Assembly (NCBI RefSeq): GCF_044647545.1
Contig: NZ_CP172818.1
Length of the DNA: 64,000 bases
Direction: 5' to 3' (one strand)
Source: Escherichia coli
GTDB lineage: Bacteria; Pseudomonadota; Gammaproteobacteria; Enterobacterales; Enterobacteriaceae
Shown here in pieces: positions 3,483-42,493 of the stretch. The stretch's first letter is position 1. Every line of letters begins with the position of its first letter. Below the pieces are notes generated by a model. It did not search any database. It worked only from the letters and a program-made list of their open reading frames with translations, and was not told the origin of the DNA. The position numbers and the translations under genes are program-made.

Positions 3483-4174
3483 TTCCCACCTCCCGCACTG
3501 ATGTCGACATACTGCGGCGCGACATCCTGGCTAAAGCGTCGCTGATATTGATTAAGCGGCGAGCTGTCACACGCCGTGGCGTTATCTTCAATAAACTTCA
3601 CCTGTTCTTCTTCCCACACCGCATCCAGCGCCTGGCGGGTGTCGTCACGCTCTTCACTGCGAATCTGTTTTGTGACGCTGTCACTTGACAGAGGGCTTCC
3701 TGCCAGTTGCAACAGGGTGTCAAATAACGCGTACCACGGTGCCTCGCGTTGTTTTAAGCGTCCGCCAAGCAGGGCGAGGATCGGCGCAACGTTGAGCAAG
3801 CCTTCTTTCGCCTGATCGTCCGGCAGTACGCTTAAGTACTCCAGATACAGCGGCAGATAATCGGGCAGTTCTCGACAATCCAACTGCAGACCGACCTTTT
3901 CATACTCCGCCAGCAGGTCCACCATTGCCTGGCCGCGATCGCGGGACTCGGCATGAACATGTTCGAACAGCAGCAGCGATGTGGTACGTCCACGGTCAAA
4001 CACTTCGCACCATTCGGCCTGTTTATCCAGCAGCGGCGCGTTAAGCAGGTTGCGGGTAAAATCCGTAAGCATCGGTGCGTCGCGGCGGATCAACGCCAGC
4101 GCGTCCTCCTTACATTCCCACAACAGCTCGTCCGGATACTCCATCAACAGGCCGATCACTTTGAGGATCTGCAT
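3479..4174 (-). CDS. narW: nitrate reductase Z assembly chaperone
   Basis: 231-aa ORF between narY and narV; 1-nt overlap with narY. Confidence 0.9.
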
Positions 4175-5718: not shown

Positions 5719-8700
5719 TTTTTCGCCTCCTGAACCTGATCGCGACCTTCATCATCCAGCCAGTTAACGTTCTTCATCTTGCGGATCATGATGAATTCGT
5801 CGCGGTTCGAGCCGACGGTGCCGTAGTAGTTAAAGCCCCAGGCCAGCTGCGCGTAACCGCCAATCATATGCGTTGGTTTCGGACAAACGCGGGTGACCGA
5901 GTTATGAATGCCGCCGCGCATGCCAGTTACTTCCGAACCAGGAATATTCATAATGCGTTCCTGGGCGTGATACATCATGGTCATGCCCGGCGGTACACGT
6001 TGGCTGACCACCGCGCGGGCCGTCAGCGCGCCGTTGGCGTTAAACACTTCCACCCAGTCGTTATCGACAATGGTCAGTTCACGGGCATCGGTTTCGCTGA
6101 TCCAGACAATTGGTCCACCGCGAGAGAGCGTCAGCATTAGCAGGTTTTCACTGTAGGTTGAGTGAATGCCCCATTTCTGGTGCGGCGTCAGGAAGTTAAG
6201 TGCTTTTTCCGGGAAGCCGTTTGGCGGTATCTGGCGCATTTCACTGACGCTACGGGTGTCGATAGGCGGGCGATAAGCCACCAGGCTTTCACCAAAAGCA
6301 CGCATCCACGGATGATCCTGATAGAGCTGCTGGCGTCCCGACAGCGTGCGCCACGGAATTAACTCATGAACGTTGGTGTATCCCGCGTTATAGGAAACGT
6401 GATCGCTTTCCAGACCGGACCATGTGGGGCTGGAGATAATTTTACGTGGCTGCGCCTGAATATCGCGAAAGCGAATCTTCTCGTCCTCTTTGTGCAGCGC
6501 CAGATGGGTATGTTCGCGTCCGGTGATCTCGCCCAGCGCCTGCCACGCTTTGACTGCAACATGACCGTTGGTTTCCGGTGCCAGCGCCAGAATCACTTCT
6601 GATGCGTCAATGGCGGTGTCAATCAGCGGACGCCCCTGTGCCGGGCCTTCACGCTTGGTGTAGTTGAGTTTGCCGAGGAAATCGATTTCATCCTGGGTAT
6701 TCCACGAAATCCCTTTACCGCCGTTGCCAAGTTTGTCCATCAATGGCCCGAGCGAGGTAAAGCGTTCATAGGTAGCAGGGTAGTCGCGTTCCACCGCCAC
6801 AATATTGGGCGCGGTTTTACCCGGGATCAGATCGCATTCGCCTTTGCGCCAGTCGAGCACTTCACACGGCTGGGAGAGTTCTGCCGGAGAGTCATGTAGC
6901 AGTGGTTGTAATACCACGTCGGTTTCTTTGCCAAGATGACCCACGCACAGTTGCGAAAATGCTTTGGCGATACCTTTGTAGATTTCCCAGTCGCTGCGTG
7001 ATTCCCACGCCGGATCGACCGCCGCAGAAAGCGGATGAATAAACGGATGCATATCCGAGGTGTTCATATCGTCTTTTTCGTACCAGGTGGCGGTGGGCAG
7101 AACGATATCGGAGAACAGGCAGGTACTGGACATACGGAAGTCGAGCGTCACCAGCAGGTCGAGCTTGCCTTCAATCGCCGCAGTTTGCCACTCGACTTCT
7201 TCCGGTTTGATCCCGTCGCTGGCACCGAGTTCCTCGCCCTGAATCCCGCTTTCGGTCCCCAGCAGATACTTCTGCATATACTCGTGGCCTTTGCCGGAGG
7301 AACCAAGCAGGTTAGAACGCCAGACAAACAAATTACGCGGATGATTGCTGCCGCTATCGGGTTGTTCGCAGGCCATACGTAAATCGCCCGATTTCAGCGC
7401 CTGGGCGGTGAATTCTGTGGGAGATAATCCGGCCTTGTCGGCTTCAGCTTTAATCCCGAGCGGATTACGCCCCAACTGCGGCGCAGAAGGTAGCCAGCCC
7501 ATACGTTCGGCGCGAACGTTGAAATCAATCAGATGACCGCTGTACTTACTGGCATCGGCCAGCGGTGAAAGTAACTCCTGAGCAGAGACTTTTTCATAGC
7601 GCCATTGGCTGGAATGATTGTAGAAAAACGAGGTGCTGTTCATCTGGCGCGGTGGTCGGTTCCAGTCGAGCGCAAAGGCCAGTGGCAACCAGCCGGTTTG
7701 CGGGCGCAGTTTTTCCTGACCGACATAGTGTGCCCAGCCGCCACCGCTTTGCCCGACACAACCGCAGAAGATCAGCATGTTGATCATCCCACGGTAATTC
7801 ATGTCCATGTGGTACCAGTGGTTAACACCTGCGCCGAGGATAATCATCGAGCGCCCATGCGTTTTATGGGCAGTATCGGCAAATTCACGAGCGATGGTTT
7901 CAATATACTGGCGCGGCACACCGGTAATTTGCTCACCCCAGGCTGGGGTGTACGGTTTGATTTCAGCGTAATCTTTCGCGCTGTTTTCATCTTCCAGCCC
8001 GCGATCGAGGCCATAATTCGCCAGTACCAAATCATAAACGCTGACCACCGGACAGGTGTTGCCATCGGCTAATGTCAGGTTTTTAACGGGCAATTGGCGC
8101 ACCAGGACCGGATTGTGTTTTACGCTACGAAAATGCGGATTTTCAATGCCGCCAAAGTAGGGGAAGGCCACGCCTGCAACGGCATCATGTTGACCGAGCA
8201 GAGTTAACGACAATTCGGTTTCCGTACCGGCGGCAATGGATTCCAGATTCCATTTGCCTTTTTCTCCCCAGCGAAAACCAATCGAACCGTTCGGCACCAC
8301 CAGTTCACCTGCGGTATTAACCGCCACGGTTTTCCACTGCGGATTATTGCTTTCGCCCAGTCCATCCACCAGGTCAGATGCGCGGACCATGCGCCCGGGA
8401 ACGTAGCTGCCGTCGTCGCGAGGTTCCAGCATTACCAGCATCGGCATGTCGCTGTAGCGGCGGCAGTAGTTGATAAAATAATCGCTGGGATTATCGAGAT
8501 GAAACTCTTTTAAAATGACATGGCCCATTGCCATTGCCAGGGCACTATCAGTGCCTTGTTTTGGTGCCAGCCACTGGTCGCACAATTTGGCCACTTCAGA
8601 GTAGTCAGGGGTAATGGCGATGGTTTTAGTGCCTTTGTAGCGTACTTCGGTAAAGAAATGGGCGTCCGGCGTACGTGTCTGCGGTACGTTAGACCCCCAG

Positions 8701-29585: not shown

Positions 29586-29810
29586 AAACGGTTCCTGTAT
29601 AAGACAAAAATTGCTGCGCTTTCCGCTTATGCAGATCTCATGCCACGCCGGGATAAGCGCCAGAATGCTGGCTTAAAGTTATATTTTTTAACTTTTGATC
29701 AACATTTGTGCAGCGTAGTGCAGTTTTGGTGCAAGAGGGGAAGTTAAGGAAGGAATCTCCCGGAATCGTAGCTGAAATCACAGTATTTAAGTGACAGTGT
29801 CACGTTAAAG

Positions 29811-29842: not shown

Positions 29843-32242
29843 TCAGATTTTCAGCGGTAACACACTGCTCATCCAGCCTGGAATTTCTTCGGCGGGTAGG
29901 GGGCGGGAAAAGAAATATCCCTGAATAACGCGACAGTGGATCTTGCGTAGCATCTCAAATTGCTCTTTGGTTTCGACGCCTTCCGCCACGACGGTTAAAT
30001 TAAGGCTTTGCCCAATGCTGGTAATGGCTTCAAGTAAGGCAAGGATGCGTTTTTCCGTCAGACAACGATCGACAAAACTTTTGTCAATTTTGATTTCCGT
30101 TACCGGAAGACTGACTAAGCGGGATAATCCGGAAAAGCCCGTGCCAAAATCATCTACCGATAAGCCCACGCCCATATCGCGCAGGATCTGAATGCGCTTA
30201 AAGATTTCGGTATCGTGTTCCATCATCATGCTTTCCGTGATTTCTACCGTCAGCTGGTGGCCGTCAATACCCCAGGCTTGCATTGCATCAGACACCTGAT
30301 TAGGCAGCTGATTACTGCGAAAGTGCAGCGCCGACAAGTTCACGGATAACGCCGGGATATGAATATTCTGGCTACGCCATTCTGCTAACTGACGGCAAGC
30401 TTCCGCGATGACCCAGCGTCCAATATTTTCGATTTCACCGATCTCTTCTGCGAGAGGAATAAACCGTGAAGGGGGCACATGACCATGCAGGGGATCGTGC
30501 CAGCGAGCAAGGGCTTCGATGCCGTACAGTTCACCCGTTTCTGCGAAGATTTGTGGCTGGTAAACCAGTTTCAGTTGGTTATTGCTAATTGCTTCTTTCA
30601 GCGCCGCGCCTAAAACCAAACGCTCTTTTACCATTTCGTTCATCGCCGGGCTGAAGAACTGCCAGCCGTTACCGCCATTTTTGCGAATAAAATCCATTGC
30701 ATTGTGAGCAGTGGAGAGCAGGTAATCGCGGTTTTTACCCACGTCGTAGCTGATGCCAATGCTCAAGGTGAGCGGGAATGGTTTATCGTCAATCATTATC
30801 GGCTTGCTGACCACATTCCGTAGCTCATCGGCGATCTGCGTAATGTTACTGACGTCGTTTTCGAGGCTCACGAGGACAAACTGCGTACCTTCGATACGAC
30901 AGAGATATTGATCCGGTTTGAGTTTTTCACGAAAGCGATTGACCACTTCCAGCAATGCCTGATCGGCCCACGCATAGCCAAGGCTATCAATCACATCCTG
31001 AATATGGTCAACACCGATGAGATACACCACTGGAGAGACGGCTTTGTCGACCAGGTCATCGAGGTAATTGTGCAGGTTATTGCGATTTGGCAGACCGGTC
31101 ATCGGATCAAATTGGATGAGTTGTTCAATATGCTGACGGCTTTTTTCCTGTTCCAGCGCCAGCGCGGCCATATGCTGGCTGATATCTGCCACGCGTTCGA
31201 TAAAGGCGCTGGTTTCTGCTCCTGACGAGGTTTTAATTTGCAGGATCCCCGCCGGCGCGCCATCACGCTGACGAATGGTCGCTGACCAGCTTTGCGCATT
31301 TTGAACTTCTGTACCGTGCGAAGATGACGCCCAGTGTATCGGCATCCCGTTGCGCAGCGCGTACAGCGAAACATGCGATTCGTTGAGTACAGATTCGATG
31401 TTACGACAAATGATTTCCCCCATTTCATGAAATGGCGGGCTGCTGCACATGGCGGCGAGAATATTGCCTTCAAGCTGGCGGATTTGCCGTTCTTCGGTGA
31501 TATCCGAGAAGGTCATTACCAGGTTCTGCAGATGCGCGAGCACGTCATAAACCGGGCTGATAGAGGCTTTAATCCAGATTTTTTCACCGGTGCGCGTCAA
31601 TAGCAGAAATTCGTCCTGATCGCGGGCGGTTTTCCATAGCAACTGTTGTAAACGAATGCGGTTATCGGCAGGGAATTCAGGAATGTTCAGGAGTGTATCG
31701 GGCTGCATACCGCTGGCTTCGCTAATGCAGTAACCAAACATTTCGGTAAATGCGCGATTGCACTGCACAATATGGCGTTCCGGATCGAGGACAATCACCG
31801 GTCGGTCGAGATGGTCAACGGCAATAATCAATTGTCGGGTCTGTTCTTTTTGCGCCATTTCTACGCTGGCATCCCGTACCAGCGCCAGGTAATAAATTTT
31901 ACCCTCGGCGCTCACTTTCGATAGCGCAAAACGGGTCCAGATTTTACTGCCGTCTTTTTTCTCCAGCTGCAGCTCCCGACTCATCCCCTCGACGCGCGCT
32001 TTACCGCCTTCACGGTTATGACGAATATATTCAGGATGCGCAGGACGCAAATCCCGCGGAATCAGCATATCAATGTTATTGCCAATGACTTCTTCACGTT
32101 TGTACCCCCAGAGCTTCTCTGCGGCGGGGTTGAAAAACATCACTTCATCATTTTCGTTAATTAACACCGCACCCATCATATTTTGCTCAAGGGCGGGGAA
32201 AAAAATGCCATCGGCGGCATTATCCGCATCGGTTAGCTTCAT
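29843..32242 (-). CDS. dosP: oxygen-sensing c-di-GMP phosphodiesterase (heme-PAS, GGDEF-like, EAL)
   Basis: Trimmed to MKLTDADNAADG (ATG at 32242-32240), 799 aa. Confidence 0.92.
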   Translation of the reverse strand: MKLTDADNAADGIFFPALEQNMMGAVLINENDEVMFFNPAAEKLWGYKREEVIGNNIDMLIPRDLRPAHPEYIRHNREGGKARVEGMSRELQLEKKDGSKIWTRFALSKVSAEGKIYYLALVRDASVEMAQKEQTRQLIIAVDHLDRPVIVLDPERHIVQCNRAFTEMFGYCISEASGMQPDTLLNIPEFPADNRIRLQQLLWKTARDQDEFLLLTRTGEKIWIKASISPVYDVLAHLQNLVMTFSDITEERQIRQLEGNILAAMCSSPPFHEMGEIICRNIESVLNESHVSLYALRNGMPIHWASSSHGTEVQNAQSWSATIRQRDGAPAGILQIKTSSGAETSAFIERVADISQHMAALALEQEKSRQHIEQLIQFDPMTGLPNRNNLHNYLDDLVDKAVSPVVYLIGVDHIQDVIDSLGYAWADQALLEVVNRFREKLKPDQYLCRIEGTQFVLVSLENDVSNITQIADELRNVVSKPIMIDDKPFPLTLSIGISYDVGKNRDYLLSTAHNAMDFIRKNGGNGWQFFSPAMNEMVKERLVLGAALKEAISNNQLKLVYQPQIFAETGELYGIEALARWHDPLHGHVPPSRFIPLAEEIGEIENIGRWVIAEACRQLAEWRSQNIHIPALSVNLSALHFRSNQLPNQVSDAMQAWGIDGHQLTVEITESMMMEHDTEIFKRIQILRDMGVGLSVDDFGTGFSGLSRLVSLPVTEIKIDKSFVDRCLTEKRILALLEAITSIGQSLNLTVVAEGVETKEQFEMLRKIHCRVIQGYFFSRPLPAEEIPGWMSSVLPLKI

Positions 32243-32266
32243 AATTACCTCTGCATCCTGACGCAT

Positions 32267-33649
32267 CTAAAGACTGGCTTTCCAGAGTTCAACACGGTTT
32301 CTACCTCGTCTTTTGGCGATATACAGAGCTTCATCGGCTATTTGAATGAGGCGCTCATAGTCAGGATGACCATTAAACATGGCGGCACCGATGGAAAGTG
32401 AGAGGGCAATATCCTCGCCGTTTGCGGCTTTCAGTTTGGTTTTCTCCACCCGACTGCGAATACGTTCTGCGGTACGTAACGTTTCGTTTTCCGAAGCTTC
32501 AGTCAAAACAATGATAAATTCATCGCCACCGTAGCGGAAAACATAATCACTACTGCGGACGTTGTCATAAAAGGCCTGAGAGACTTTACGCAGAATTTCA
32601 TCGCCAGTGTTATGGCCCCACGTATCGTTGATCTCTTTGAATTTATCAACGTCAATAATCAGCACTGACAGCGGTGTACCGGTCCGGTTGGCATGGGCAA
32701 TTTCGCGTTTGAAGATCGTCGGCAGGAAACGACGGTTAAGTAATTTCGTCAGGACATCCATACCGACTTCGTGGCGCGATACTTCTTCAAACAATTCACG
32801 CAGCAAGGTAATAATTTGCGATACGGTATTTCTTATCTGTAATAAAAATTTCACCCGTAAACTTCTGTTATTCAAATTCCTGGTGTTACGCATGGTTTGA
32901 TTGAAAATACCGTCGAAATCCTGAATCAGACGGGAGATATGGCCCACTTCGGCAATGCCGCTAAAATAATGTCGACCTTTATGGTTAAACCACAGGCCAA
33001 AATCAGCCTGGCTTAAAGGCAAACTACTGCCTAAATCAGAATCCAGCAGGACTTTATAGATAATATCTATTTCCCATGAAAGTATTGAGGCTATTTGCCG
33101 TTCTTTTTCTTCTTCGGCATTTTCCAGTAACGAGAAGATACGATAGTTTTCATCTTCCTTTGAGGCACTACTGTCACTAAAGGTAAACGCGCGGGTCATC
33201 ACTTCCATAGCGATATCAATACTGTTAATAGAGAAATGGTAGACCTGAAGTTTTTCTGCGGCGGAATAATCCGAAGAGAAGATGACCGGATAGAGGATTT
33301 TTTTCAGCACCCGAAACCCCATCTCGACAATTTCTACCGGAATTCCTATGCGGGCATGCACTTCCGCGACGGTATGCTGGATTTGTATTAGCCTTTCGAC
33401 ATCGTCAACCTGGGCAGAAAGCACGTTAATAATCCAGCGTTCCATCGCACTTTTCAACTGCCGCTCAACTTGTTCATTACTCAAGAATTCTTCGGCATGT
33501 GGGTCGATACGGACAATTCGATAAAACTCAATACTCAGATAATGAGCATGCGCAACGGCAATTTCCGCGGCTTTAGCACGAATGAGCGGATCTGCTTGTT
33601 CGACAAGCCCGGTCCACTCATCTTTCATTCTTTTAAAATACATCTCCAT
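32267..33649 (-). CDS. dosC: oxygen-sensing diguanylate cyclase (globin-coupled sensor, GGDEF)
   Basis: 460-aa ORF with a RYGGDEF motif; 24 nt upstream of dosP. Confidence 0.92.
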   Translation of the reverse strand: MEMYFKRMKDEWTGLVEQADPLIRAKAAEIAVAHAHYLSIEFYRIVRIDPHAEEFLSNEQVERQLKSAMERWIINVLSAQVDDVERLIQIQHTVAEVHARIGIPVEIVEMGFRVLKKILYPVIFSSDYSAAEKLQVYHFSINSIDIAMEVMTRAFTFSDSSASKEDENYRIFSLLENAEEEKERQIASILSWEIDIIYKVLLDSDLGSSLPLSQADFGLWFNHKGRHYFSGIAEVGHISRLIQDFDGIFNQTMRNTRNLNNRSLRVKFLLQIRNTVSQIITLLRELFEEVSRHEVGMDVLTKLLNRRFLPTIFKREIAHANRTGTPLSVLIIDVDKFKEINDTWGHNTGDEILRKVSQAFYDNVRSSDYVFRYGGDEFIIVLTEASENETLRTAERIRSRVEKTKLKAANGEDIALSLSIGAAMFNGHPDYERLIQIADEALYIAKRRGRNRVELWKASL

Positions 33650-34024
33650 AATTCACACCCTTATAAGGCTGGGAAAGCAGACGGAATCAAAACGAAACGC
33701 AACGTGCGAGATCGACTAACTGCACCATACTCTCCTGAAATATGAAGATATACTGAAAACAAATAAGCGACTTAGGACAGTTTCAATCTACGCTACTGTT
33801 CTTCAGAAGAGTATAGCCCATCGTAATTATTTTTCGGTGACAGCGAATATCGTATGTTTTTTCATGTTCATACATTTTTATTAGGGGATTTATGACTGTT
33901 TAACTAAGTGTGGTTAATTGCGTAGTTAATTTGACTTAAGTAAGCATGATTACTAGTGGGATATTTCAAGAGGGTAACAAGCCGGGGGGAAAGCACCGGC
34001 TTGTTACAAAGTAAGAATGGGAGT

Positions 34025-35344
34025 TTAACTGCCCCAACGACTTTGCAGATAGCTGACCGCTTGTTGAGTCTGTGGCTTATTCAGATAGTCCTCACGGAAC
34101 AAGATTGTGCCGCTAATTTCTGGCACGGCATCGTTAAGATCGAGCTGCTTTTTCAGTTCCGGTACGCCGCCGTTAATCATCCAGTCTGGCTCTATCTTTG
34201 AAGGTTCACCCACTTTATAGAAGGCGATACCGATATACAGGCGGGTCCTGGTCGGTTTAACGACATCCGCCCACCATTTTGCCAACACGTCATAACGTGC
34301 GGCACTCCGTGAGAACGGCCAGTAAATTTGGGGAGCAATGTAATCCAGCAACCCTTGTTCCACCCATCGACGGGTATCAGCGTAGGATTCGTCATAGGCT
34401 GCCGCGCCTCGGGTATCGGAACCGAGCGGATCGTGTGATCGGTTACGCCACACGCCTGCCGGGCTAACGCCAAATTCGACTTCCGGCTTAATGCTTTTAA
34501 TGGTGTGCGATACCTTCGCAATTAACTGCTGAGTATTGTTGCGCCGCCAGTCTGCTTTTGACGCAAATGCGCCGCCGTATTTGCGGTACGTTTCGTTATC
34601 ATTTAGCCGTGAAGCTGGTGACTCAGTATAGAAATAGTCGTCAAACTGCACGCCATCTACCGGATAGCGGGAAACCACTTCTGCGACTATTGATGTGATC
34701 CAGTCCTGAACCTCAGGGATGCCCGGGTCGAGGACAAAGCGATCGCCGGACGTTCTGATCCAGTCGCGGTGTTGCACATAGACGCTGGCCGGTTGTTGAG
34801 ACAGGGTGCTATTCAGTTCCCTGATAGTACCGGGCTTCGTATTAACCGATACGCGATAGGGGTTAAACCATGCGTGTACTTTCATCCCACGCTTGTGGGC
34901 TTCGTCGAGCATGAATTGCAGCGGATCGTAACCCGGATTTTCACCAATCTTACCGGTCATAAGATCGGACCACGGCAAAATTTTCGATGGCCACAGGGCG
35001 GTACCATCCGGCTTGACCTGAAAAAAGACCGTGTTTATGCCGAGACGTTGCAGATGATCCAGTTTGTCGATCATCGCCTGTTGTTGTACACGGGCCCGGC
35101 TGGTGGGGTTACTAATGTTAACCGAGGAAAGCGGTGGCCAGTCGAGGCGAGACACCGTGGCCAGCCAGATGCCACGCATCGGTTGTGACGATTGTTGCGT
35201 CGTGGCTGGTGGCTTTGAACCCGCTGGTGGTGTCACCATGGACTCTGGAGGCGTGCTTTTACAACTACACAGTAAAAGTGCCAGTGCAACCAGTATCGCT
35301 GGTCTTCTAATCGCTAATTTCTCGTTTCGGGAGCAGATATCCAT
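34025..35344 (-). CDS. yddW: glycoside-hydrolase-like lipoprotein YddW
   Basis: 439-aa ORF with a lipoprotein signal (LALLLCSC), K-12 synteny. Confidence 0.85.
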   Translation of the reverse strand: MDICSRNEKLAIRRPAILVALALLLCSCKSTPPESMVTPPAGSKPPATTQQSSQPMRGIWLATVSRLDWPPLSSVNISNPTSRARVQQQAMIDKLDHLQRLGINTVFFQVKPDGTALWPSKILPWSDLMTGKIGENPGYDPLQFMLDEAHKRGMKVHAWFNPYRVSVNTKPGTIRELNSTLSQQPASVYVQHRDWIRTSGDRFVLDPGIPEVQDWITSIVAEVVSRYPVDGVQFDDYFYTESPASRLNDNETYRKYGGAFASKADWRRNNTQQLIAKVSHTIKSIKPEVEFGVSPAGVWRNRSHDPLGSDTRGAAAYDESYADTRRWVEQGLLDYIAPQIYWPFSRSAARYDVLAKWWADVVKPTRTRLYIGIAFYKVGEPSKIEPDWMINGGVPELKKQLDLNDAVPEISGTILFREDYLNKPQTQQAVSYLQSRWGS

Positions 35345-35420
35345 ATGTGCTGGTTTCCGGTAAACAGATGTGCGCTCATTCTCGTACTTATCCCGGTTAA
35401 GTCAATACGACAGCAAGCAC

Positions 35421-37010: not shown

Positions 37011-37165
37011 ATTATCCCCCTAAAACGGTATTCCTGTCGGAACCGCACCTGTTTTGTTCTGAAGCGTATTCAGAACAATATTTTCCGTTGCTAATGCCAG
37101 TGAACAGACTTTGGAAATTGTCCCGAAACGGGTGTGTTTCGGGACACCGTTACCGTTAAACGTTA

Positions 37166-42378: not shown

Positions 42379-42493
42379 GTTTATATCTTATAGTATGTAG
42401 TCTAATTTAATCCATGTGAGCAAATTGCGCGATAATAGTCAATGAGGAATTCTTCTGCTGTGCGGATGACAGCAGAAGAAATGAGAAGAGGCA

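What the first reader, a model, noticed from the sequence alone, without database searches (positions are those of the whole stretch)
33974..34007. Perfect 12-bp stem-loop immediately downstream of yddW
gtaacaagccgg-ggggaaagca-ccggcttgttac forms a perfect 12-bp stem with a 10-nt loop and no flanking U-tract. It lies between the yddW stop and the dosC promoter region. It could be a U-tract-less terminator, an RNA stability element or a protein-binding palindrome.
Basis: seen in the sequence. Interest (0 to 1): 0.2.

Follow-up and report, generated by a model that had tools for sequence, protein, structure and literature searches.

The report
Leaky hairpin ending the digH transcript
This is an ordinary RNA hairpin just after the E. 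coli cell-wall gene digH (yddW) that most likely marks and protects the end of that gene's messenger RNA and only partly stops transcription from running on into dosC.

Summary
A perfect 12-bp stem with a 10-nt loop lies at 33974-34007, 17 nt after the digH (yddW) stop codon on the minus strand and about 175 nt upstream of the dosC transcription start. Chance does not explain it: the window has 3 such hairpins against 0.05 per shuffle.

The element is single-copy and present in 5412 of 5426 complete E. coli genomes. In K-12 and most sampled strains it is a 14-bp stem with a 7-nt loop. The window's C-rich loop is a minority variant.

Other Escherichia lineages keep the helix through both-sided changes and G·U pairs that work only in the digH-sense RNA. 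More distant relatives have unrelated hairpins at the same position, some with clear U-tracts.

K-12 long-read data list digH-only transcripts and digH-dosC read-through transcripts from one start site. Published Term-seq lists show no 3' end at the hairpin and no Rho-termination region nearby.

Best reading: a U-poor gene-end hairpin that forms and protects the digH mRNA 3' end. Termination there is leaky, probably weak intrinsic plus Rho-dependent in the C-rich, G-poor stretch that follows. This is a known class. A protein-binding palindrome is unlikely. Interest is low.

The parts
33974..34007 (-). Gene-end RNA hairpin of digH. On the minus strand the 5' arm is 34007-33996 (GUAACAAGCCGG), the loop is 33995-33986 (UGCUUUCCCC), and the 3' arm is 33985-33974 (CCGGCUUGUUAC).
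   Evidence: Sequence and inverted-repeat search. Fold of -18.8 kcal/mol with z = -5.9. Single copy in 5412 of 5426 E. coli genomes. Pairing kept in 95% of cells across 13 Escherichia sequences, with 2 pairs changed on both sides.
34008..34024 (-). The 17-nt spacer (ACUCCCAUUCUUACUUU) between the digH stop codon and the hairpin.
   Evidence: Nearly invariant across Escherichia sequences.
34025..35344 (-). digH (yddW) coding sequence, 439 aa, a GHL10-family lipoprotein. The hairpin closes this gene's transcript.
   Evidence: ORF list. RefSeq annotation of the 100%-identical strain FDAARGOS_497. Homologues carry PF02638.
35371..35405 (-). digH's own promoter (TTGACT-16-GAGAAT at 35405-35378) and its inferred transcription start at about 35371.
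   Evidence: Promoter-like site in K-12 at L001 8885-8858. SMRT-Cappable-seq start at 1568850, 7 nt past the -10 element. Mapped onto the window by collinearity.
33894..33973 (-). Untranslated stretch just 3' of the hairpin, C-rich and G-poor (20 C, 7 G in 80 nt). Candidate Rho-loading region.
   Evidence: Composition count; C minus G ranks in the top 4% of 80-nt windows on this strand. Rho involvement is inferred, not shown.
33799..33816 (-). Downstream context: a sigma-S-like -10 element CTATACT (33816-33810) and the inferred dosC transcription start at about 33799. This marks the end of the 175-nt gap after the hairpin.
   Evidence: K-12 start at 1567290, mapped through alignment A1. CTATACT is also present after the hairpins of L096 and L097. 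The start lies 11 nt past the element, further than usual, so the promoter assignment is tentative.

Best explanation
The element is the 3'-end hairpin of the digH (yddW) messenger RNA. It is a U-tract-poor, leaky terminator and mRNA-protecting stem-loop.

Proposed sequence of events:
- RNA polymerase starts at digH's own promoter, about 27 nt upstream of the ATG, and transcribes the hairpin 17 nt after the stop codon.
- Ribosomes have left by then, and the next roughly 80 nt of RNA are untranslated, C-rich and G-poor. I infer that Rho loads there and ends most transcripts within the 175 nt before the dosC start.
- 3'-to-5' exonucleases (PNPase, RNase II) then trim back to the base of the hairpin, which blocks them and leaves a stable monocistronic digH mRNA.
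- The GC core (GCCGG(UG)/(CA)CCGGC) followed by UUGUUAC may add a minor share of factor-independent termination.
- The remaining polymerases read through into dosC.

Shown: the structure, its position, its conservation, the strand bias of the natural changes, and the coexistence of digH-only and digH-dosC transcripts in K-12.

Inferred: that the digH-only transcripts end at this hairpin, that Rho is involved, and that exonucleases trim to it.

I put about 0.8 on the general claim (an RNA hairpin that forms or protects the digH 3' end) and about 0.5 on the specific route of Rho plus trimming with a weak intrinsic component.
For: - Position: the hairpin starts 17 nt after the digH stop, on the sense strand.
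- Stability is well beyond chance.
- It is single-copy and near-universal in E. coli, present in 5412 of 5426 genomes.
- Among 13 Escherichia sequences, 95% of pair cells are standard pairs, against 33-52% when the 3' partners are slid by 1-3 columns. Two pairs change on both sides (A-U to G-C, A-U to U·G).
- G·U pairs occur in 8 cells when read in the digH sense, against 2 in the antisense. The sense hairpin is the more stable one in the divergent lineages, for example -21.5 against -14.0 kcal/mol in L007.
- In those lineages the U content of the 3' arm falls (GUGUCAU) while pairing is kept. This points to selection on the helix rather than on a U-tract.
- Relatives with 85-86% identical DigH and the same digH-dosC order have unrelated U-poor hairpins 10-13 nt after the stop.
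- Across 84 Enterobacterales digH loci, the first 70 nt after the stop fold with a median z of -2.6, and 60% have z below -2. For nt 50-120 the figures are -0.4 and 13%.
- By my own lenient version of the terminator rule, 18 of 86 loci have a consensus terminator there, against 4% of shuffles.
- The 80 nt after the hairpin hold 20 C and 7 G, in the top 4% of windows on this strand. [quoted passage not shown]
- SMRT-Cappable-seq in K-12 (PMC6131387, supplementary file 4) lists operon 'b1491' and operon 'b1491|b1490' from the same start at 1568850, plus a separate dosC start at 1567290. Termination between digH and the end of dosC is therefore real but incomplete.
- In the same window, the U-poor hairpin after gadB coincides with a strong Term-seq 3' end in K-12 at 1570594.
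Against: - The curated Term-seq 3'-end lists of Adams 2021 (three conditions, files held uncut) have no entry at 15674xx. They do list the neighbouring gadC and gadB 3' ends.
- The same paper's list of Rho-termination regions has nothing at 15670xx-15676xx. Low digH expression may explain both absences, but the result is not positive evidence.
- The coordinate at which the 'b1491' transcripts end was not in the held text. They could end inside dosC rather than at the hairpin.
- Covariation is thin. There are only 13 sequences; 21 of 500 shuffles reach the observed covariation score, and 153 of 500 reach the observed count of both-side-changed pairs.
- Within E. coli the stem is not clearly better conserved than its flanks.
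- The 5' arm is A-rich, which Dar and Sorek associate with intrinsic rather than Rho-dependent ends.
- The downstream stretch is only 25% C.
Confidence: 0.55

Rival explanations
1. It is purely a weak intrinsic (Rho-independent) terminator. The functional unit would be the GC core (7 bp with a 7-nt loop in most E. coli) followed by the U-rich distal 3' arm UUGUUAC. The A-rich 5' arm would simply extend the helix, as in many A-tract/U-tract terminators. Termination would be inefficient and precise, with no role for Rho or exonuclease trimming.
For: - The architecture is A-rich, then GC core, then loop, then U-rich.
- Four of the first five bases after the core are U.
- The sra terminator in the same window builds its perfect 12-bp stem the same way, with AAA/UUU ends and a long U-run.
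- Several genera have clear consensus terminators at this position.
- Leaky termination is seen in K-12.
Against: - It fails the consensus scan in both the window and K-12: only 4 T in the 8-base tail where 5 are needed, and a 10-nt loop in the window.
- Other Escherichia lineages lose U's in the tail (GUGUCAU) but keep pairing through compensatory changes.
- The closest non-E. coli relatives have tails without a U-run.
- No Term-seq 3' end is listed there.
Confidence: 0.25
2. It has no selected function. It would be a chance or hitch-hiking palindrome in a slowly diverging spacer, and digH transcripts would end for other reasons.
For: - Within E. coli the stem columns vary about as often as the flanks.
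- Mismatch-creating variants are tolerated (A·G in L094 and L005, A·C in L093, loss of the top two pairs in the window lineage).
- No mapped 3' end is listed.
- The covariation statistics are weak.
Against: - A perfect 12-14-bp hairpin is about 60-fold rarer than observed in shuffles.
- It lies exactly at a gene end.
- Pairing survives in lineages where 5-7 stem positions have changed.
- Unrelated hairpins recur at the same position in most other Enterobacterales.
Confidence: 0.12
3. It is a DNA palindrome bound by a dimeric regulator that controls dosCP or digH.
For: - It is a perfect 12-bp inverted repeat with arm centres 22 bp apart, about two helical turns.
- It lies in the spacer upstream of dosC.
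- A genomic-SELEX peak for RpoH holoenzyme was reported somewhere in the yddV-yddW spacer (PMC5493296).
Against: - It is about 175 nt upstream of the dosC start and about 1.4 kb downstream of the digH start.
- The loop/spacer length varies (9-11 nt) and its sequence varies.
- Natural changes are mostly of the G·U type, which keep RNA pairing in the sense strand but break DNA symmetry (8 cells against 2).
- Relatives replace it with unrelated hairpins rather than a conserved motif.
- There is no match to the matS or Ter motifs beyond chance.
Confidence: 0.04

Closest known systems
Protective 3' stem-loops of Rho-dependent transcripts (Dar and Sorek 2018, NAR; PMC6061677)
   Same: A stable hairpin right after the coding region with no U-rich tail, followed by a stretch with more C than G. 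That paper also proposes easy evolutionary switching between this type and intrinsic terminators, which fits the mix of hairpin types seen after digH in other genera.
   Different: Rho dependence and exonuclease trimming are not shown for this site. No steady-state 3' end has been mapped here. The 5' arm is A-rich, a trait that paper links to intrinsic terminators.
Canonical intrinsic (Rho-independent) terminator
   Same: A GC-rich stem-loop downstream of a gene on the sense strand, with an A-rich 5' side and a U-rich 3' side, and incomplete termination with read-through.
   Different: There is no 7-8-nt U-tract (4 of 8 at best). The window variant has a 10-nt loop. It fails the consensus scans. 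The U content of the tail is not conserved across Escherichia lineages.
The gadB-gadC intergenic hairpin in the same window (37119-37146)
   Same: A perfect 11-bp hairpin shortly after a stop codon, with a U-poor tail (AAUUUCC) and co-directional genes on both sides.
   Different: That hairpin has a strong mapped Term-seq 3' end in K-12 (1570594). The digH hairpin has none in the same data set.
REP/BIME extragenic palindromes acting as mRNA stabilisers
   Same: An extragenic palindrome after a gene that could block 3' exonucleases.
   Different: This element is single-copy per genome and shows no similarity to a dispersed repeat family.

Membership tests
Canonical intrinsic terminator | GC-rich stem-loop (stem of at least 5 bp, loop of 3-8 nt) | tested here: inconclusive
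   The core GCCGG/CCGGC is all G-C. In the window the loop is 10 nt, outside the usual range. In K-12 and most sampled strains the core is 7 bp with a 7-nt loop, inside the range.
Canonical intrinsic terminator | U-rich tract of about 7-8 nt immediately 3' of the stem | tested here: not met
   The tail after the full stem is CCUCUUGA (3 U of 8). After the GC core alone it is UUGUUACC (4 of 8). The consensus scans call no terminator in the window or in K-12.
Canonical intrinsic terminator | Precise in vivo 3' end at the U-tract | tested here: inconclusive
   There is no entry at 15674xx in the uncut curated Term-seq lists of Adams 2021, and digH expression may have been too low. SMRT-Cappable-seq shows digH-only transcripts, but their end coordinate is not in the held text.
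Canonical intrinsic terminator | Factor-independent termination in vitro | not testable with these tools
   This needs an in vitro transcription assay.
Rho-dependent transcript 3' protective stem-loop (Dar and Sorek 2018) | Energetically stable stem-loop not followed by a U-rich sequence | tested here: met
   Free energy is -18.8 kcal/mol in the window and -23.1 in K-12; the tail is U-poor.
Rho-dependent transcript 3' protective stem-loop (Dar and Sorek 2018) | C-over-G enrichment (a rut-like region) just downstream | tested here: met
   There are 20 C and 7 G in the first 80 nt, in the top 4% of windows on this strand.
Rho-dependent transcript 3' protective stem-loop (Dar and Sorek 2018) | No A-rich tract upstream of the stem | tested here: not met
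   The outer 5' arm is GUAACAA, which is A-rich and pairs with UUGUUAC.
Rho-dependent transcript 3' protective stem-loop (Dar and Sorek 2018) | Bicyclomycin-sensitive read-through, and PNPase/RNase II-dependent trimming to the hairpin | tested here: inconclusive
   The Adams 2021 list of Rho-termination regions has nothing at 15670xx-15676xx, which is absence of evidence at a weakly expressed gene. Exonuclease dependence cannot be tested here.
REP/BIME or other dispersed palindromic repeats | Many copies per genome | tested here: not met
   A sensitive blastn of the 73-nt region finds a median of 1 place per genome and a maximum of 2. There is no Rfam match.
Bidirectional terminator between convergent genes | Convergent transcription units sharing the hairpin | tested here: not met
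   gadC, digH, dosC and dosP are all on the minus strand.
Transcription-factor operator palindrome | Conserved symmetric half-sites at a fixed spacing near a transcription start | tested here: not met
   The site is about 175 nt from the dosC start. Spacer length and sequence vary. The changes break DNA symmetry but keep sense-strand RNA pairing. Relatives have unrelated hairpins at the position.

The most novel reading that the evidence does not exclude
The hairpin could be a regulated read-through point rather than a passive gene end. Its efficiency would be tuned by growth condition, by Rho or NusA/NusG, or by the PNPase-containing complex with which DosC and DosP have been reported to associate (recalled from the literature, not checked here). 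Transcription from the digH promoter would then conditionally feed the dosCP oxygen/c-di-GMP module. The variable loop (a C5-C7 run in the window lineage, or the two extra base pairs elsewhere) would set lineage-specific leakiness.
Probability: 0.06. Interest if true: 0.4.

Novelty: new member of a known kind. Interest (0 to 1): 0.12.

Why it matters
The significance is modest. The hairpin explains how digH, a divisome-associated glycan hydrolase gene, is delimited from the sigma-S-controlled dosCP operon. It also explains why long-read data show both digH-only and digH-dosC transcripts. It adds one clear, evolutionarily tracked example to the class of U-poor gene-end hairpins. It illustrates how related bacteria fill the same gene end with hairpins of different types, some with U-tracts and some without. 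It opens no new question and would not surprise a specialist in bacterial transcription.

Tried and rejected
- Rfam scan of 33000-35000 at permissive E-values: only chance-level hits to unrelated families.
- Dispersed-repeat (REP-like) reading: rejected, because the element is single-copy.
- Replication-terminus motifs were checked because the locus lies in the chromosome terminus region. The hairpin flank matches the Ter core only as TTTGTAACAA (2 mismatches), at chance level (35 matches against 42 expected). No matS match overlaps the hairpin.
- Sigma-32 promoter idea, prompted by the RpoH SELEX peak in the spacer and a CTTGAAA next to the hairpin. By eye no -10-like element sits at a workable spacing, and K-12 has CTTAAAC instead. 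I dropped it; this was judged by inspection, not by a dedicated test.
- CsrA-type GGA loop motif: present only on the antisense strand of the window variant, and absent from the K-12 loop sequence (by inspection).
- An apparent canonical-terminator allele (GCCGGT-GCT-ACCGGC-AUUUUUA) in strain P276M: it occurs in only 1 of 5426 genomes, in an assembly whose dosC is annotated as frameshifted. It carries no weight.
- My own script called the L007 hairpin a consensus terminator, but the session's scan tool did not. I treat that call as lenient.
- Direct 3'-end evidence in supplements. Dar and Sorek 2018, PMC9023263, PMC8848933 and PMC11890068 have no held supplements. TERMITe and PMC9262186 have no entry. 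Adams 2021 is held in full but has no 3' end at the site. Yan 2018 gives the operon variants but no end coordinate.
- Literature searches for yddW or digH together with dosC found no description of this hairpin.

Full report
**Context.** The window is Escherichia coli. The digH-dosC spacer is 100% identical to strain FDAARGOS_497. RefSeq annotation of that strain places gadC, digH (formerly yddW), dosC and dosP all on the minus strand. In window coordinates digH is 34025-35344, dosC is 32267-33649 and dosP is 29843-32266.

Positions 33974-34007 read GTAACAAGCCGG-GGGGAAAGCA-CCGGCTTGTTAC, a perfect 12-bp inverted repeat with a 10-nt gap.
- In the digH-sense RNA the hairpin starts 17 nt after the TAA stop.
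- It folds at -18.8 kcal/mol with z = -5.9, and no shuffle of 200 folds as well.
- Perfect 12-bp hairpins with loops of 3-12 nt occur 3 times in the window, against 0.05 per dinucleotide-preserving shuffle.
- One of the other two is the canonical terminator after sra. The other lies inside yddB.
- The tail after the full stem is U-poor on both strands, and the consensus terminator scan calls nothing.
- No Rfam family matches.

The stem is a GC core (GCCGG/CCGGC) extended by an A-rich 5' arm (GUAACAA) paired with a U-rich 3' arm (UUGUUAC).
- In K-12 the arms are identical, but the loop reads UGCUUUACCCA. Two more pairs form, giving a 14-bp stem with a 7-nt loop at -23.1 kcal/mol.
- Sampled genomes from the two most populous identity bands carry this 14-bp form (L088, L089).
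- The window's exact 73-nt version is found in 364 of 5412 genomes.
- In the window's lineage the loop carries a C-run of 5, 6 or 7 (L087, window, L086).

**Distribution.** A sensitive search with the 73-nt region finds it in 5412 of 5426 complete E. coli genomes, with a median of one place per genome. It is therefore not a dispersed repeat.

**Variation within E. coli.**
- O157 carries a C-to-U change that gives G·U in the sense RNA.
- One lineage (L093) has a G·U plus an A·C.
- Another (L094, L005) has an A·G mismatch.
- Within E. coli the loop varies most, and the stem varies about as much as its flanks. Species-level conservation alone therefore says little.

**Other Escherichia lineages.** A scan of species-representative genomes with a DigH alignment returned 80 loci. 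Three divergent Escherichia lineages (L006-L008, DigH 94-95% identical) keep a hairpin at the same place.
- On a 13-sequence alignment, 95% of pair cells are standard pairs, against 33-52% when the 3' partners are slid by 1-3 columns.
- Two pairs change on both sides: A-U to G-C, and A-U to U·G or C-G depending on how a one-base bulge is placed.
- The statistics are thin. The covariation score is reached by 21 of 500 shuffles, and the count of both-side-changed pairs is reached by 153 of 500.
- G·U pairs are strand-informative, and 8 cells are G·U in the digH sense against 2 in the antisense.
- The sense-strand hairpin is the more stable one in the divergent lineages and in O157.
- In those lineages the 3' arm loses U's (GUGUCAU) while pairing is preserved. 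This argues that the helix, not a U-tract, is what is kept.

**More distant relatives.**
- Two metagenomic relatives with 85-86% identical DigH and the same digH-dosC order have unrelated U-poor hairpins 10-13 nt after the stop.
- Citrobacter-like loci have a third, unrelated long hairpin.
- Across 84 digH loci, the first 70 nt after the stop fold with a median z of -2.6, and 60% have z below -2. The stretch 50-120 nt after the stop gives -0.4 and 13%.
- By my own lenient version of the consensus rule, 18 of 86 loci have a hairpin followed by a U-tract there, against 4% of shuffles. Clear examples are in Enterobacter, Lelliottia and Rahnella.
- A stable hairpin right after digH is therefore a conserved positional feature whose sequence and type turn over.

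**Experimental data from papers.**
- Yan et al. 2018 (SMRT-Cappable-seq, PMC6131387, supplementary file 4) list three entries for K-12: operon 'b1491' from a start at 1568850 (reverse strand), a 'novel' operon 'b1491|b1490' from the same start, and 'b1490' from a start at 1567290.
- By their method, operon ends are defined termination sites or, failing that, the longest transcript. Two variants from one start therefore mean that some digH transcripts stop before covering dosC and others read through.
- The digH start lies 7 nt past a TTGACT-16-GAGAAT promoter-like site.
- The dosC start maps to about window position 33799, which is 175 nt beyond the hairpin.
- The end coordinate of the short transcripts was not in the held text.
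- Adams et al. 2021 (PMC7815308), whose supplementary files are held uncut, list Term-seq 3' ends at the gadC terminator (1568900) and at the U-poor hairpin after gadB (1570594). They list none near 15674xx, and no Rho-termination region at 15670xx-15676xx.
- This is negative but weak evidence, because digH expression may have been low in those conditions.

**Mechanism.** Dar and Sorek 2018 (PMC6061677) described this kind of element. [quoted passage not shown] These are followed by mild C-over-G enrichment and produced by PNPase/RNase II trimming. The authors note that such hairpins and intrinsic terminators interconvert easily, and that weak intrinsic termination backed by Rho may be a transition state.
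- The 80 nt after the digH hairpin hold 20 C and 7 G, in the top 4% of windows on that strand.
- That stretch is untranslated.
- I therefore favour a U-poor gene-end hairpin that defines and protects the digH mRNA 3' end. Termination would be mostly Rho-dependent in the following stretch, with a minor intrinsic share from the GC core plus UUGUUAC, and with measurable read-through into dosC.
- The A-rich 5' arm and the near-miss U content (4 of 8) keep the purely intrinsic reading alive as the main rival.

**Readings I consider unlikely.**
- A protein-binding palindrome. The site is far from either transcription start. Its spacer varies in length and sequence. The natural changes keep RNA pairing rather than DNA symmetry. 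Relatives have unrelated hairpins instead of a conserved motif.
- Ter or matS sites. The similarity is at chance level or absent.
- A repeat-element origin is excluded.
- An apparent canonical-terminator allele in strain P276M is a singleton in a questionable assembly.

**Verdict.** The feature is real and non-random, and most likely an ordinary gene-end hairpin of a known class. It had not been described individually in the literature I could search. Interest is low. The decisive missing datum is the 3'-end coordinate of the digH-only transcripts.

Noticed in passing
window 33687-33728 (- strand): The 13-codon small ORF yddY ([13 protein letters not shown]) in the dosC 5' leader is intact, with one synonymous difference from K-12. 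The protein was detected experimentally in K-12 (PMC6001520).
   Followed up: partly
window about 33910-33935; K-12 L001 about 7400-7420: A 12-bp copy-number polymorphism of an AATTAAC(T/C)AC-containing direct repeat lies in the digH-dosC spacer. The window has two copies. K-12, L089 and L005 lack one copy.
   Followed up: no
window 33986-33995 (hairpin loop); L086, L087: The C-run in the loop varies in length (C5, C6, C7) among strains of the window's lineage. Compared with the common form, this lineage loses the top two base pairs of the stem.
   Followed up: partly
L003 2990-3000 (E. coli MS20673): An IS1 end abuts the hairpin inside its 3' arm (after CACTGGC). An adjacent deletion removes everything between digH and sra, including dosCP, ddp, osmC and bdm.
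   Followed up: partly
L004 2794-3060 (E. coli MS 57-2; also hits H25-H29): A subset of E. coli genomes carries a deletion that removes most of dosC. It fuses the yddY region to the last 165 nt of dosC and leaves dosP intact.
   Followed up: no
window 37119-37146 (- strand): A perfect 11-bp hairpin lies after gadB with a U-poor tail (AAUUUCC). The K-12 equivalent carries a strong Term-seq 3' end (1570594) labelled 'orphan' in Adams 2021.
   Followed up: partly
window 42450-42480: A perfect 12-bp hairpin with a 7-nt loop (TTCTTCTGCTGT/ACAGCAGAAGAA) lies inside the yddB coding sequence.
   Followed up: no
window 3672-3684, 29791-29803, 57746-57758: There are three perfect matches to the matS consensus GTGACRNYGTCAC (as I recall it), the MatP binding site of the Ter macrodomain. 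With up to 2 mismatches there are 18 matches against 6.8 expected. One perfect site lies just past the dosP stop codon.
   Followed up: no
window 35371-35405 (- strand): The digH promoter-like site TTGACT-16-GAGAAT begins only about 15 nt after the U-tract of the gadC terminator. Its -10 element ends 7 nt before the published K-12 start at 1568850.
   Followed up: partly
digH-dosC spacer (K-12 old coordinate 1565470): Genomic SELEX (Shimada 2017, PMC5493296) reported an RpoH-holoenzyme binding peak in the yddV-yddW spacer and an RpoS-holoenzyme peak inside yddW. By eye I saw no convincing sigma-32 promoter next to the hairpin.
   Followed up: partly
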